Source of the DNA: Fimbriosthenelais zetlandica
Taxonomy: Eukaryota
DNA length: 64,000 nt
Direction: 5' to 3'
NCBI GenBank assembly: GCA_977030845.1
Contig: OZ365114.1
Span: forward strand, 22,320,001 to 22,384,000
Part shown: in pieces, positions 9,001 to 60,000 of the stretch
Position numbering within the stretch: position 1 is the stretch's first letter
Layout of the letters: every line of letters starts with the position of its first letter
Made by a program: the position numbers

Positions 9001-12000
9001 TGATAACAAAATAACAAGAATTATGATAATGTTATCATCATAATAATTTTGTCATAATTTCTTTTTCAAAGTGAATAGAATATTCCTATTTAAAATCTGG
9101 AAATATATACATGCACCACGTACAATACAAACAATTGCCAATCGTTCATAATTCTATACAATATAATACATTCTGACAATTAAATATTGGTTCTCTTGAC
9201 ACCAACTGTATTTGTGGTAGAAAATATGATAAGATTTCTGATTATCCTATAGTATAGGGGTATATTATTATTTAGGCGTTTTTAGTTTAGTATTGAGTTT
9301 TTCAAACTGTACCCTGGAGAGTTGGGATCCGTGGATGATAATGGTCTTCAGGCTTGACCAGTACATAGGCCACGGGTCTGTGAATGTCCTGGGAGGAGGG
9401 GGAAGAGGCAGCTGCCGAGCTAGCCGACCCTGGAGGCATGTAACCTGGAGGACAGCAGAACGGCATATATTGGCTGGCGAGGCCGGCATGGGTGTGAGCT
9501 GCCGCCGGCGGGAGACCGGCGAAGGGCGACCCGTATGGGAACATACTGGAGGCGGCCGCGGCCGTCACGGCACTAGAAGGTAAATCGCCAGTGGCAGCCC
9601 GGAGTGAACTCTCCGCCAGCTTGGAGGCTGATTCAAGATGGGAATACAATGGGGAGGATACTTGGGGGTACCAGGAGCGGACTGCCTTCTCTGTGGCCGC
9701 CATGGCTAGGGTATCAGAGGCAGAAGGGGGCAACCCACCGAGCCCCTGTGCATGCAATCCCATACCCATATTCATACCCAAAGTTCCCATTCCTATCCCC
9801 AGGGAACCACCATACCCTGGAAGCATTGGCAATGGGAATGCATACTTGTCCTTCTTTAGCAGACTTTTGGGCTTGCGTCTGGGTCTGTACTTGTAGTCAG
9901 GATGCTCTTTCATGTGTAATGCCCTCAATCGTTTGGCTTCGTCAATGAATGGTCTCTTCTGCTCATCGGTCAAAAGTTTCCAGTCTGCGCCAAGTCTCTT
10001 TGAGATTTCTGAGTTGTGCATCTTTGGATTTTCCTGGGCCATTTTCCTCCGTTGACCTCTGGACCACACCATGAAGGCGTTCATGGGGCGTTTAACATGA
10101 TCAGATGATGAGGAGGAGGAGGACGGGCAGGTTCCACCACTTGATGAGCTAGGTGATATAGGTGGTGATAAACTACCTGCCTGAGACATCATACTGCTGC
10201 ACGACTGAGACATCATGTGGTGGACACTGCTGCCCTGCGATAACAATCCTGGTCCATCCATGTTTACAAGCAAACAAATGTCACTGGCTACTAGAGTCAA
10301 TATATCTTACTCTGTAAGAATAGATAAGGAAGGATGCAACGACTGACCAGATATACCGTGAAGATTCACTCAGTTCCTGATGATTAAATCTCCTTTATGT
10401 ATTGTGCTGAAATGTTGAGTTCAGTTCTGAATGAATATTTCCACTTGTGAATTAATACTCCAGTGGTTCATTGGATTAACTTGCAATGGATTGTCTTTGG
10501 TCCTGTTATGTGAGTTGACATCTGACAGCTATGCTCCACATGATTTGTGTCCTTTAAGTGTCACTCAGTCAGTTGCTGCTCTGTCACTCTCTCCCTCTCT
10601 GTGTTCCATTCAGGCTTGCTGAATTCCACTTTCCTATTTGGTTCCAAGATTACTGCTGGTTAGATCGTTTCTTTGGTTAAATGCTGGGGCAATCTTGACA
10701 AAATAGAGGTATTTCTTGCAGACTGTCACACACGCACACGATGAGGAGTCTGCTGTGAGTGTGTTAAACGTGTGTTAGTTCTCAGACGATCAGATCTCGA
10801 CTCAACCACCACACACAAGATACCTGGATAGCAGGATAGTACTCGCCTCGCCCTCAGCCATACGCGCCTTAACCAATCACATCGCTGTGCGGGTCTAGGC
10901 CACGCCTCTCCCTTTGTATTTCTCCTGTGATTGGCGCCCCATTGATGGGAAATCTAGATTCTTATTGGCTGCCGGCAGTGCGTGCCTCATTAAACATGTG
11001 AACAGGCAGGGGGTCGGATTCATGTGCTTCTGTGAGTGTTAGAAGTGAGAAATATTGTCTTACTCAATCAACTCGAGAATTAAGAAATGTTTTCGCGCTA
11101 AGGAAACTATTAACACTCTCCAAATGTCTATACTCATCATATAAATTGTGAGAGAGGCCATTAGTTAGAGTTCAAATGCCCAAATCATGACCTTTATAGA
11201 TATATTCATGCACTTGAGACCATTTGTTATGGAGTTAAAGCTACACTATTTTATATTCTTGGTTCTCAATAATCTGTAAAGGTTGCGCCCAAGGAGGTCT
11301 ATTACTCTTTTTCTCAGTCCTAAATAATCTACTAAGGCTGAGCACATGAAATTCTATTAATGCTGCCCTACTTTGTTTCCTGATTGCTGGACACTAGACA
11401 AACTTCTATTAATGCTGCCCTACTTTGTTTACTGATTGCTGGACACTAGACAAACTGATAATATTATATGCATGCAATTCTATTAAAGCTGTCCTTCCAT
11501 TGTCCAAGAGTTAACTGTCCTCGAAAACAAATTAATGCTTCCAGACAAACATGCATGTTATAGAAATAGAGGCAGGCAGACAGAAAGAGATTACTCATAT
11601 GGACAGGAATACTAGCTATGGGGCAAATAGAAGTTGTATTGAGAAGATGGACAAAGGCAGAAGACAGGGATGGGGACAGGGACAGAGATACTAGGAGATT
11701 TATACGACTCTCAGTCATTAGAACCCAGTGAATATTCCACCCACAGTTGTAGGGGAAAGTGTTGAGCAACAGCTGTATCTTAGTTCCCGCGCTAAACACT
11801 AGGGGGATGTACTTGTCAGGCGCGCCCCAGTCTCTGGGTTCTTATCTTACCTGCAGATTGTTGGTTCATATAGTTGTAGATTGATACAACTGTACATGTA
11901 TATCGGAGGAAACAATTGAAGAAGTACATGAACATAGAACATCTCATTAAATAGTTCCTTTGTTTGCTTCATGTATTGCCTTTGTAGAAGTAGACAATGC

Positions 12001-57000: not shown

Positions 57001-60000
57001 GCGCTTCCTAAATGATATATAATCAATATATTCATCCGCGGCCGCTTACAAATAACATCATCCTCATCAGACATGAATGTGTCATTAAGCCCGACCCAAA
57101 ATACGATGACAGTCTCTGAGTCTATACTATAAATCTTCTCTCTACACGCACTCCTCCTCTTTACTTAATTAATAACACACCCACAGCCCTGCTCCAACCA
57201 TATGAATTTCCTATTTCAGTTTTCCCCCAAATTCTGTTAATTTGATATTTCTTTTTCATGAAATGTGAACAATACATTCCATATCATGATTTTATTCCTG
57301 ATATTCCTCTATTTCTAAGATCTCTCTTATAGCTGGACTCGAAATGAAAGAAAAACATGATATACATGTCATATTATTGCATAATTAGGTCTTGATTGAA
57401 TATTCGAAGGCGGATGAATATGAATGGTATTGTTGGAAGTATTTCATTTCCGCCATGGGTCTATATCGCGGTTATAAAACTTGCCAACATAATTAGTAAC
57501 GGGAAAGGTCCAGTTTCCTAAATTCCTAAAGAAAATATGGTTACCATGCAGTCCAAAAGAATTTATGTGCGGTAATTTATATTAAAAGTGCCTATATATA
57601 TATTTATTTTATCGATTCAAATTCTGCTTGTGATTATGGACAAACGCATCACCTAGATTGCTGAAACTATCTTAAATATGGAAATTATTGGTTTTTTTGT
57701 GTTTGCTCATTGCGATATAACGTAATGTTGCTTACCTTTTCTCTCTTTCTTCAACGGATCTTCATTTATGGACGCGTCAAGCCACCGACTCCCAGACCTG
57801 ATATTGGCCCAGATTAAAGATGCTTCCTCCAGAGTGTTTCCATCCAGGTCATGTGCCCATAGGAAATAGGAAGTCTATATATATACGTGGACGTTTGCCT
57901 TTCAAGACGAGAGGATTTGGAAAACATTTGTCAGTGTTGGGGATCCAAATTTCGGAAGTTGGAGAATCAGTTTATTTTTAATTGAATGATGAGTGTCCAA
58001 TATCACAGGTACAGAGATAATAAATCATAGACAGGGGCATCCTTTTAAAAATAGTTCATTTTTCATGTCTATGACAAACTAAAGGCCTTTAATTAGGCGG
58101 TTATATTGTGCCAGTCACTTTGCTTCTCTCTCCGGGTTTGTGTAACAGTACATAGGCCGCCAGAGGGTGTCTAAAATCAGACTGACTTGATGGAAGGCTA
58201 AATGAGGGGTGAGCAGCCAAGCCAGGGGTTCCCCATGGCCCTAACATGTACTGACTGGAATGTTGACTGGTGAGCCCACCAGATGAGAAGGGCCCCAGCC
58301 CGGCGGGGTATGGGAAGAGGCTCGGCGAGGTGTGTAGATCGTGGGGCCTGATGGGGCCGTGGCCCTCGGCCTCGGCGCGACGATGCCCGGCAACTGCTGC
58401 GGCACTGGCTGCTGCTGCTGCAGGATCAAGATGCGGGTAAAGCGAGGTAGGCAAGTGAGGCATGAAAGAACGAGACATGTCACTAAGAGCTGCAGCTGAC
58501 AATAAATCAGCAGCTGACGGCTGGCCACCAGAGTAACTCAGACCACACCCATAACCCTGCAGGTAGGGCATGGGAAATGCATACTTGTCCTTCTTCAGCA
58601 GACTTTTGGGCTTGCGTCTGGGTCTGTACTTGTAGTCAGGATGCTCTTTCATGTGTAACGCCCTCAACCGTTTGGCTTCGTCAATGAATGGTCTCTTCTG
58701 CTCATCACTTAAAAGTTTCCATTCGGCTCCGAGTCGCTTTGAGATTTCTGAATTGTGCATCTTTGGATTTTCCTGGGCCATTTTCCTCCTCTGTCCTCTG
58801 GACCAGACCATGAAGGCGTTCATGGGGCGTTTAACATGCTCTTCCTCACTGCTGACCACTGGTCGAGTTGGCTGTCCAGGCCTCTGTGAGTGACCGGCCA
58901 TCTGGCTCATCATGGGTGATAATGGAGACATTCGAGAGAGTGGCGACAGTGAGGAGACTGGCGAAATGGGCCTCGTCTCTTCTTGAATCATCCTATCAGA
59001 CATTATTACTTGTTTTAAAGTTCAGAATAAATACTTTAATAAGTTATTTTTGGATGGAATGTTCGTCCGGGAAACTGGCAAAATGTAGCAAAAGGCAGAT
59101 GAATAGAGCAGGAGAAGAACTGAAGATTTTCCTCGGAAAAGATGCCCCTGAATGAGTTCTTGTAGTAGTAGTACTTTAGATTGTGAATATGATCAGGCTA
59201 GCAGAAATGGTATTCAAACAGCAGGAGAACGCCTTTACAAAAGGTACAGCTGGCGCAGAGCCAATGGGTATTGTTGCAGCTTTCTTGCACGTGGTTCTAT
59301 TTTCACGCAAACAGTCACTGGTTCTTTTTGGAGTCCTGAATGTCCAGAGAGATCCTGAAATCCAGCGATGATCAAGTGGCCAGCTGGTTACAATAGCTAA
59401 TTCCTACAGATGCAGGTGGTGTCTACCAAACTTGTCTGCCTGACTTAATTTTTCTATAGCATTGCCCGAAAGCAAGGAATAGTTCAGATAACAATGGCTT
59501 GATAGTGTAGAAGAAAACAATATCCTTTCCCTGATCGGATGCTTTCTTCAACTAATCTCCGAGTAAGAGGTATGTGGATAAGGACGCCCGTGATTCTGTT
59601 TCTCCTTCTCCAGATTCCTCGGCAAAGATGAACCGTTCTTGCAGGGAGTGGGAAGTATCTGTGTTATATGTGTGAGTGAGCGTGTGTGGTCGAGCTAGGA
59701 TGATAGTGCCAATACAAACCAGCTCCCCATGCGCTCCTGAGTCACTCTCTGCTTTAACACCCCTTCAACTCTTCCTTGTCATTCAGCACCCAGCGTCTTG
59801 TCACCTTCATGACCAATCAGCATCATAGCCACCCAGACCACACCCACTCTATTGTTTCTAGCAGTCTGATTGGCAGGCCCACCCCAGGAGGGCTGAAGGG
59901 GCGGGAAAGTGTGGATCCGGTCCTCTAGTGTATGGGTTTTACGCTAGGTGGCAGTGTATGGCGTGATAGCCTGAGAGGAACTCATAAGAATGATACTATA

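What the first reader, a model, noticed from the sequence alone, without database searches (positions are those of the whole stretch)
9302..59003. Tandem, same-strand pair of intact SoxB2 genes
Both genes carry SoxB2-type signatures, and neither looks like SoxB1. Known SoxB linkages are SoxB1-SoxB2 pairs in vertebrates (Sox2-Sox14, Sox1-Sox21) and the Dichaete/Sox21a/Sox21b cluster in Drosophila. A SoxB2-SoxB2 pair may be a lineage-specific mini-cluster. The unrelated flanks argue against a haplotype mis-assembly.
Basis: partly seen in the sequence, partly recalled or inferred. Interest (0 to 1): 0.65.

Follow-up and report, generated by a model that had tools for sequence, protein, structure and literature searches.

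The report
Tandem pair of SoxB2 genes
Two intact SoxB2-type developmental regulator genes lie head-to-tail about 48 kb apart in a gene desert of a spiralian (annelid-like) invertebrate genome, an ordinary gene family in an arrangement so far described mainly in arthropods.

Summary
Two uninterrupted minus-strand ORFs sit at the stated coordinates: A, 9302-10261, 319 aa; B, 58101-59003, 300 aa. They are 47.8 kb apart, and no other recognisable gene or third HMG box lies in the window.

Both carry a Sox HMG box, the group-B homology, the SoxB2 signature residues (H at HMG position 2, P at 78) and the SoxB2-type C-terminal motif. Both lack the SoxB1 motifs. In a 62-row tree the SoxB1/SoxB2 split has 100/100 support, and both genes fall among lophotrochozoan SoxB2.

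Each copy has its own orthologues in unnamed relatives (A 69-71%, B 64-75% identity). The best tree makes A+B one clade (79/100), which fits a lineage-restricted duplication with fast early divergence of B. A basal position for B is not rejected (AU p 0.47).

Two additions:
- The HMG block is 93% identical at the DNA level, with low synonymous divergence (pS 0.32 against 0.77-0.88 in the flanks). This suggests gene conversion.
- Both genes keep a similar inverted CCAAT-box pair upstream.

Verdict: real, modestly interesting, a new member of a known kind.

The parts
9302..10261 (-). Gene A: single-exon SoxB2 coding sequence, 319 aa (P0001), stop codon included
   Evidence: ORF. Pfam HMG_box plus SOXp. 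Nearest relatives P0003 (71%) and P0004 (69%) over 92-99% of its length. Start and stop regions align with those relatives.
9890..10096 (-). HMG box of gene A (residues 56-124)
   Evidence: Pfam HMG_box 56-124. Best solved relative is SOX-2, E 8.2e-50.
58101..59003 (-). Gene B: single-exon divergent SoxB2 coding sequence, 300 aa (P0002), stop codon included
   Evidence: ORF. Pfam HMG_box plus SOXp. Nearest relatives P0062 (75% over 98%) and P0057 (64% over 91%). N- and C-termini are conserved with P0062.
58629..58835 (-). HMG box of gene B (residues 57-125)
   Evidence: Pfam HMG_box 57-125. Residue-by-residue alignment to a SOX-2 chain, E 4.4e-49.
9832..10102 (-). Block of gene A (HMG box plus group-B homology) that is 93.4% identical in DNA to 58570-58841
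   Evidence: This is the only blastn match between the two gene regions: 272 nt at 93.4%. pS is 0.32 in the block against 0.77-0.88 in the flanks. At identical residues, 65 of 80 codons are identical in the block against 22 of 70 outside it (Fisher p 5e-10).
58570..58841 (-). Matching block of gene B
   Evidence: Same evidence as above.
10873..10934 (-). Inverted CCAAT-box pair with a GC/GT-rich core, 612-673 nt upstream of gene A's ATG; candidate core promoter
   Evidence: The pattern CCAATCA-N(35-65)-TGATTGG occurs twice in the window, here and upstream of B. Expected 0.02, and 0 of 100 shuffles had 2 or more. The pattern was chosen after reading. CpG observed/expected rises to 0.72-0.88 here.
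59813..59873 (-). Matching inverted CCAAT-box pair, 810-870 nt upstream of gene B's ATG
10262..58100 (.). Intergenic stretch of 47.8 kb without a recognisable gene
   Evidence: 147 further stop-to-stop ORFs of at least 75 aa from the whole window were scanned with Pfam. Only two single-member matches appeared, at E 0.0034 and 0.0049, which I do not count as credible. Rfam gave 0 matches at gathering scores. Short exons would be missed.

Best explanation
The window holds two paralogous, intact, intronless SoxB2 transcription-factor genes in tandem on the minus strand. B lies 5' of A, and 47.8 kb of gene-poor DNA separates them.

Inferred history: one SoxB2 gene, with its core promoter, was duplicated in tandem in an ancestor that the window's species shares with at least two other sequenced relatives. 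These are lophotrochozoans whose SoxB2 looks most like annelid SoxB2. Copy A kept the ancestral lophotrochozoan SoxB2 sequence. Copy B changed quickly outside the DNA-binding domain soon after the duplication and has since been conserved at least as well as A.

Inferred function: both proteins should bind the same Sox sites through near-identical HMG boxes, and both keep the SoxB2 C-terminal motif. They would therefore differ in where and when they are expressed, and in partner contacts through their divergent N- and C-terminal regions.

The HMG/group-B block has probably been homogenised between the two copies by gene conversion (my estimate about 0.6).

Shown here: the gene structures, the SoxB2 class, separate orthologue sets, low synonymous divergence in the block, and a shared upstream motif pair. 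Inferred: the timing of the duplication, the conversion, the expression of both copies, and repressor activity.
For: Structure and class:
- Two complete ORFs with HMG_box and SOXp.
- Both have H at HMG position 2 and P at position 78. Passages of PMC3029401 name positions 2 and 78 as the subgroup signature and H at 2 as the SoxB2 state.
- Among 365 stored proteins where both positions could be read, 175 were H/P. Of these, 115 had the SoxB2-type C-terminal motif and 0 had SoxB1-type motifs. Another 167 were R/T: 0 with the SoxB2 motif and 135 with SoxB1 motifs. A and B are H/P with the SoxB2 motif.

Tree (62 rows, 358 columns, careful search):
- The SoxB1/SoxB2 split is 100/100, and both genes fall on the SoxB2 side, in the lophotrochozoan group (83/87).
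- The B clade (winB, P0062, P0057) has 100/100 support.
- The best tree joins the three A rows and three B rows into one clade of exactly 6 (79/100).
- With the HMG block removed, a tree holding A+B together scores 4.49 log-likelihood units better than the free quick search found (p-AU 0.6).

Shared states: [T/S]DEQ at HMG positions 45-48 occurs in 6 of 6 A/B rows. Elsewhere among 406 stored proteins only an NDEQ form occurs, in 6 rows. The residues after the group-B homology (FP[L/M]P..GYG) also match.

Conservation of the pair: P0004 (A-type) and P0062 (B-type) both list a longest contig of 1,537,216 bases. Tree path lengths are winA-P0004 0.287 and winB-P0062 0.154.

Constraint: in the block, 17 synonymous against 7 non-synonymous differences (dN 0.032, dS 0.413).

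Conversion: see the block entries under parts. In addition, P0004 and P0062 differ at 1 of 92 block residues, and each carries one state otherwise typical of the other paralogue.

Promoter.
Against: - The position of the B clade is not settled. Holding it on the SoxB1 side of the tree, which places it at the base of all SoxB2, costs only 0.97 log-likelihood units (p-AU 0.466).
- The first quick tree (80 rows, vertebrate SoxB1 only) put B outside the main SoxB2 group (support 91).
- The free quick search on non-HMG columns did not join A and B (support 19).
- Bootstrap support for A+B is 79, below the usual threshold, and the A rows are not resolved as a clade of their own (49 and 48).
- Part of the A+B signal lies in the block that may be homogenised by conversion.
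- The 'same contig' inference rests only on two equal contig lengths. The cluster look-up that could have shown more was unavailable.
- No RNA evidence for either gene was available.
- The CCAAT pattern was defined after looking at the sequence, so its shuffle statistic is optimistic.
- Low synonymous divergence could instead reflect selection on synonymous sites.
- GC3 in the block (0.57) is not raised over the whole gene (0.56), so there is no biased-conversion footprint.
Confidence: 0.7

Rival explanations
1. B is an ancient SoxB2-like paralogue that arose before the lophotrochozoan or even the bilaterian radiation. It would have been lost almost everywhere else, and its HMG box would look like A's only because of gene conversion.
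For: The AU test does not reject B at the base of all SoxB2 (0.97 lnL, p 0.466). The quick tree and the free non-HMG search did not join A and B. The B stem is long (0.455). Signs of conversion in the block could create the shared DEQ state.
Against: B-type proteins were found in only two other unnamed records among the 120 best hits listed of 4383 at E<=1e-20. None of the named molluscs, annelids, nemerteans, brachiopods, echinoderms or chordates shows one. The best trees with and without the HMG block have A+B as a clade. B keeps, in the same order, the motifs typical of lophotrochozoan SoxB2. Passages of PMC3029401 reconstruct one SoxB2 in the bilaterian ancestor.
Confidence: 0.2
2. The arrangement is an assembly artefact: a duplicated haplotype, or a false join of two loci.
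For: No read-level data were available. The window alone cannot prove contiguity.
Against: The proteins are only 54% identical. The DNA matches only over 272 nt and the flanks are unrelated, so this is not a haplotype copy. There is no N or gap in the window.
Confidence: 0.04
3. Copy B is a decaying or non-functional duplicate.
For: It is the more divergent copy (stem 0.455). No expression data were available.
Against: B has an intact 300-codon ORF. Its start, stop and internal motifs are conserved in P0062 and P0057. Its recent path length to P0062 (0.154) is shorter than that of the A pair (0.287). In the block, dN/dS is about 0.08. It retains the upstream CCAAT pair and has poly(A) hexamers from 8 nt after the stop.
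Confidence: 0.05
4. The low synonymous divergence in the HMG block reflects selection on the nucleotide sequence (codon choice, mRNA structure, an embedded regulatory element), not gene conversion.
For: GC3 is not raised in the block. The 62-nt longest exact match is not obviously longer than 18 differences spread over 272 nt would give (my rough estimate). The protein-level hints of exchange in the relative are single conservative changes.
Against: Codon identity at identical residues is 65 of 80 in the block. The genes' own codon usage predicts 29.7 of 80, and conserved residues outside the block show 22 of 70. The drop in third-position identity is sharp at both edges of the block.
Confidence: 0.35

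Closest known systems
Lophotrochozoan SoxB2 (for example Platynereis dumerilii 'SoxB' P0011, Capitella Ct-soxB, Malacoceros Mfu-SoxB2, molluscan 'Sox-14-like')
   Same: Gene A shares 58% identity with P0011 over 84% of its length. It has the same order of motifs from the HMG box to the C-terminal motif and groups with these proteins. Gene B keeps the same signatures and motif order in a more divergent form.
   Different: Passages of the papers report one SoxB2-type gene per species: Capitella has two SoxB in all, one SoxB1 and one SoxB, Malacoceros has SoxB1 plus SoxB2, and Capitella and Lottia are listed as 1+1 in PMC3029401. Here there are two, in tandem.
Arthropod SoxB2 cluster (Dichaete / Sox21a / Sox21b)
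   Same: Tandem duplicates of SoxB2 on one chromosome, as described in passages of PMC3029401. It is a parallel expansion of the same subgroup.
   Different: The duplication is independent. A and B sit inside the lophotrochozoan SoxB2 group, apart from the arthropod rows. There are two genes rather than three, about 48 kb apart. Only one to three arthropod rows were in my trees.
Planarian SoxB2 paralogues (Schmidtea mediterranea)
   Same: A lineage-specific SoxB2 duplication within the Spiralia, noted in PMC3029401. The names soxB2-1 and soxB2-2 also occur in planarian papers that I saw only in a search listing.
   Different: No planarian sequences were among my hits, so the relationship was not tested. 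Whether the planarian pair is linked was not stated in the passages I read.
Vertebrate SOX14 / SOX21
   Same: Same subgroup: H2/P78 signature, C-terminal motif, intronless coding region.
   Different: According to PMC3029401, the vertebrate pair arose by whole-genome duplication and is not in tandem. A and B are not one-to-one orthologues of either gene.

Membership tests
Sox family | Sox-type HMG box | tested here: met
   Pfam HMG_box E 1.6e-27 (A) and 8e-28 (B). The best solved relatives are SOX-2 HMG domains, E 8.2e-50 and 4.4e-49.
Sox group B | Group-B homology directly after the HMG box | tested here: met
   Pfam SOXp matches at residues 125-160 (A) and 126-153 (B), above the curated cut-off. 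The region aligns with named SoxB1 and SoxB2 proteins.
SoxB2 | Signature residues at HMG positions 2 and 78 (H and P) | tested here: met
   Both genes have H and P. That these positions are the signature, with H at 2 as the B2 state, comes from passages of PMC3029401. P at 78 as the B2 state comes from my own counts.
SoxB2 | SoxB2-specific conserved motif outside the HMG box (C-terminal) | tested here: met
   The motif is present in both genes. It was found in 115 of 175 H/P proteins and 0 of 167 R/T proteins. I defined the motif from my own alignment, because the paper's Figure S1 is a supplement I could not see.
SoxB2 | Phylogenetic placement on the SoxB2 side of the SoxB1/SoxB2 split | tested here: met
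   100/100 split, with 22 named SoxB1 rows from 9 phyla on the other side. A basal position of B within SoxB2 is not excluded.
SoxB2 | Transcriptional repressor activity / antagonism of SoxB1 | not testable with these tools
   A passage of PMC5539756 says that some SoxB2 proteins act as repressors.
SoxB1 | R at HMG position 2, T at 78, and SoxB1 C-terminal motifs | tested here: not met
   Neither gene has them.
Arthropod Dichaete/Sox21a/Sox21b cluster | Orthology to one of the three arthropod SoxB2 lineages | tested here: not met
   A and B group with lophotrochozoan SoxB2, not with Strigamia, Anabrus or Culicoides rows. Arthropod sampling was thin.

The most novel reading that the evidence does not exclude
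This would be an independent spiralian counterpart of the arthropod SoxB2 cluster. A tandem SoxB2 duplication is conserved across several species. One copy diverged fast outside the DNA-binding domain. The HMG/group-B block is kept nearly identical by recurrent gene conversion, and both copies keep the ancestral CCAAT-pair promoter. In effect it is a natural experiment with a shared DNA-binding module and divergent effector and regulatory parts.
Probability: 0.45. Interest if true: 0.45.

Novelty: new member of a known kind. Interest (0 to 1): 0.3.

Why it matters
SoxB genes are core regulators of neurogenesis. [quoted passage not shown] A conserved tandem SoxB2 pair in a spiralian lineage would be a third, independent expansion. 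It would give a compact system for asking how duplicated Sox genes divide their roles. If domain-limited gene conversion is confirmed, it would also warn that HMG-box-only trees can mislead about Sox orthology. It does not change what is known about what SoxB2 proteins are or do.

Tried and rejected
A script then counted 0 N.
- The cluster look-up for the window's proteins and their nearest relatives was not available, because the database was switched off.
- The bacterial-type promoter/terminator scan does not apply to an animal genome, and I ignored it.
- The Rfam scan found nothing.
- The Pfam scan of 147 other ORFs found nothing credible.
- The first tree lacked invertebrate SoxB1 and so could not test the SoxB1 alternative. 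It was replaced by the tree.
- My first regex for the GYG motif missed the A/B rows (last line). I read the motif from the printed lines instead.
- SoxB1 identity was rejected for both genes.
- Haplotype duplication was rejected.
- No search was made in metagenome or viral contig collections (closed) or in the bacterial/archaeal genome collection (irrelevant), so no relative's DNA was available.
- No structure or complex prediction was run, because the family is well known.
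Full report
**Scope and constraints**

- The window has no N.
- Nothing in it looks human. The nearest named proteins are from annelids, nemerteans and molluscs.
- Both gene models are single uninterrupted ORFs.
No DNA from relatives could therefore be examined.
Figure S1 of PMC3029401, which defines the SoxB2 motif, was not seen.

**The observation**

- Of 28 stop-to-stop frames of at least 120 aa, the two longest are on the minus strand and carry an HMG box.
- From ATG to stop they are 9302..10261 (gene A, 319 aa, P0001) and 58101..59003 (gene B, 300 aa, P0002). The finding's coordinates are the stop of A and the start of B.
- Both match Pfam HMG_box and SOXp above the curated cut-offs.
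- Their best solved relatives are SOX-2 HMG domains (E 8.2e-50 and 4.4e-49).
- The proteins share 141 of 261 aligned residues (54%).
- tblastn finds no third Sox-like locus; the other hits have E of 0.74 or more.
- The genes are head-to-tail. B lies 5' of A on the minus strand, 47,839 bases away.

**Surroundings**

- 147 other ORFs of at least 75 aa gave only two single-member Pfam matches, at E 0.0034 and 0.0049.
- Rfam gave nothing at gathering scores.
- Self-comparison of the window gave 15 non-self pairs. These are a roughly 128-bp tandem array at 41.7-42.8 kb, a 27-bp repeat near 29.6 kb, a small palindrome near 7.65 kb, and the HMG block.
- The 5-kb flanks of the two genes are unrelated.
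- The pair therefore sits in a gene-poor stretch, and it is not a recent segmental or haplotype copy.

**Class**

[quoted passage not shown] They also state that subgroup-specific motifs exist outside the HMG box.
- A and B both have H and P at these positions, and both have a C-terminal motif shared with named SoxB2 proteins and absent from SoxB1.
- 365 stored proteins could be read at both positions:

| Signature (pos. 2 / 78) | Proteins | With SoxB2-type C-terminal motif | With SoxB1-type motifs |
|---|---|---|---|
| H / P | 175 | 115 | 0 |
| R / T | 167 | 0 | 135 |

- I defined these motif patterns from my own alignment.

**Phylogeny: how the rows were chosen**

- The first searches returned almost only SoxB2-type proteins (149 of 164).
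- To obtain real SoxB1 sequences I searched the representatives library with a named fish Sox-2. I then searched with one SoxB1-type hit, which proved to be from Arion vulgaris.
- This gave named SoxB1 from annelids, a nemertean, a brachiopod, molluscs, echinoderms, a hemichordate, amphioxus, a priapulid and chelicerates.
- I then built a careful tree from 62 hand-picked rows of the 406 proteins held:
  - the six A/B rows;
  - 22 named SoxB1;
  - named SoxB2 from the same range of phyla;
  - seven unnamed near relatives.
- I left out the long-branch rows flagged: Culicoides, Anabrus, Dimorphilus, P0097 and the rotifer-like group.

**Phylogeny: results**

- The SoxB1/SoxB2 split is 100/100, and both window genes are on the SoxB2 side, inside the lophotrochozoan group (83/87, 29 rows).
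- winB, P0062 and P0057 form a 100/100 clade on a long stem (0.455).
- In the best tree the three A rows and three B rows form one clade of exactly six (79/100). B is nested among the A rows with weak support (49 and 48).
- The next rows out are the Platynereis group (73/72).

**Results against a simple reading**

- Holding the B clade on the SoxB1 side, which places it at the base of all SoxB2, costs only 0.97 log-likelihood units (p-AU 0.466).
- The earlier quick tree also placed B outside the main SoxB2 group.
- A free quick search on the 268 non-HMG columns did not join A and B (support 19).
- However, the constrained A+B tree on those columns scored 4.49 units better than that free search (p-AU 0.6).
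- A+B is therefore the best-scoring arrangement with and without the HMG block, but the data do not exclude an older origin of B.

**Distribution of the two types**

- A's closest relatives are P0003 (71% identity over 99% of A), P0004 (69% over 92%) and P0005 (61% over 82%).
- B's closest are P0062 (75% over 98%) and P0057 (64% over 91%). The next hit reaches 62% over 61% of B.
- No named species shows a B-type protein among the 120 hits listed per search.
- P0004 and P0062 both report a longest contig of 1,537,216 bases. This most simply means one contig in one relative carries both types. It shows linkage within 1.5 Mb, not adjacency.
- Shared states support common origin. [T/S]DEQ at HMG positions 45-48 occurs in 6 of 6 A/B rows; elsewhere among 406 proteins only an NDEQ form occurs, in 6 rows. 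The residues after the group-B homology also match.
- Recent path lengths are 0.287 for winA-P0004 and 0.154 for winB-P0062. B is not decaying.

**Domain-limited DNA identity**

- The only nucleotide match between the two gene regions is 272 nt at 93.4% (9832-10102 against 58570-58841). It covers the HMG box and the group-B homology.
- Synonymous difference is pS 0.32 (dS 0.41) in the block, against 0.88 in the N-terminal part and 0.77 in the C-terminal part. Both edges are sharp.
- At identical residues, 65 of 80 codons are identical in the block against 22 of 70 outside it (Fisher p 5e-10). The genes' own codon usage predicts 29.7 of 80.
- dN/dS in the block is about 0.08.
- In the relative, P0004 and P0062 differ at 1 of 92 block residues, and each carries one state typical of the other paralogue.
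- I read this as gene conversion confined to the DNA-binding block (about 0.6). Selection on synonymous sites is the alternative.
- GC3 is not raised in the block.

**Upstream regions**

- Both genes have an inverted CCAAT-box pair with a GC/GT-rich core between the boxes. It lies 612-673 nt (A) and 810-870 nt (B) upstream of the ATG.
- The gapped pattern occurs only at these two places in the window. The expected number is 0.02, and 0 of 100 shuffles had two or more.
- The pattern was defined after reading the sequences, so this statistic is optimistic. The single 7-mer is not enriched: 10 found against 16.3 expected.
- That CCAAT boxes are bound by NF-Y is recalled, not tested.
- Poly(A) hexamers begin 8 nt after B's stop, but only 2,034 nt after A's stop.

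**Literature**

- Passages of PMC3029401 say that:
  - the bilaterian ancestor had one linked SoxB1 and one SoxB2;
  - Capitella and Lottia have one of each;
  - Schmidtea has two SoxB2;
  - arthropods expanded SoxB2 by tandem duplication.
- Passages of PMC5539756 report two SoxB genes in Capitella.
- Passages of PMC7489019 report SoxB1 plus SoxB2 in Malacoceros, and treat Platynereis SoxB as SoxB2.
- Passages of PMC13253686 report a single soxB2 in a chaetognath.
- Searches for SoxB2 paralogue names and for SoxB2 duplication in annelids or spiralians listed arthropod, planarian and cnidarian cases. In the listings and passages I saw, none described a tandem SoxB2 pair in an annelid-like spiralian. 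These searches cover only the held open-access library.

**Verdict**

The finding is real and correctly interpreted. It is a new instance of a known kind of event, tandem duplication of SoxB2, in a lineage where it has not been described in the papers I could search. Two modest extras are a block probably homogenised by gene conversion and a retained promoter module.

Noticed in passing
window 41731-42781: Tandem array of a unit of about 128 bp (4.2 plus 2.4 copies, 85-93% matches) in the middle of the intergenic stretch. It is the only sizeable repeat in the window.
   Followed up: partly
window 29525-29774: CT-rich 27-bp tandem repeat, 9.5 copies at 75% matches. It underlies three long but low-complexity + strand ORFs at 29435-29891.
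   Followed up: no
window 11352-11456: Two copies of a 52-bp unit at 98% identity, about 1.1 kb upstream of gene A's ATG.
   Followed up: no
window 7638-7718: Small palindrome: a perfect 30-nt self-complementary match next to a 51-nt match at 82%, about 1.6 kb downstream of gene A's stop.
   Followed up: no
protein P0026 (Urechis unicinctus, named 'SOXB1' by its source): It carries the H/P SoxB2 signature and groups with annelid SoxB2 next to Capitella. The source name looks wrong.
   Followed up: partly
window 6300-9301 and 55100-58100 (3 kb downstream of each stop): Poly(A)-signal hexamers start 8 nt after gene B's stop, but the first one after gene A's stop is 2,034 nt away. Gene A may have a long 3' UTR.
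   Followed up: no
proteins P0004 and P0062 (unnamed relative): In the HMG/group-B block, the A-type protein has the B-typical first residue and the B-type protein has the A-typical residue at position 45. The two differ at only 1 of 92 residues. This is the pattern expected if conversion also acts in that relative.
   Followed up: partly
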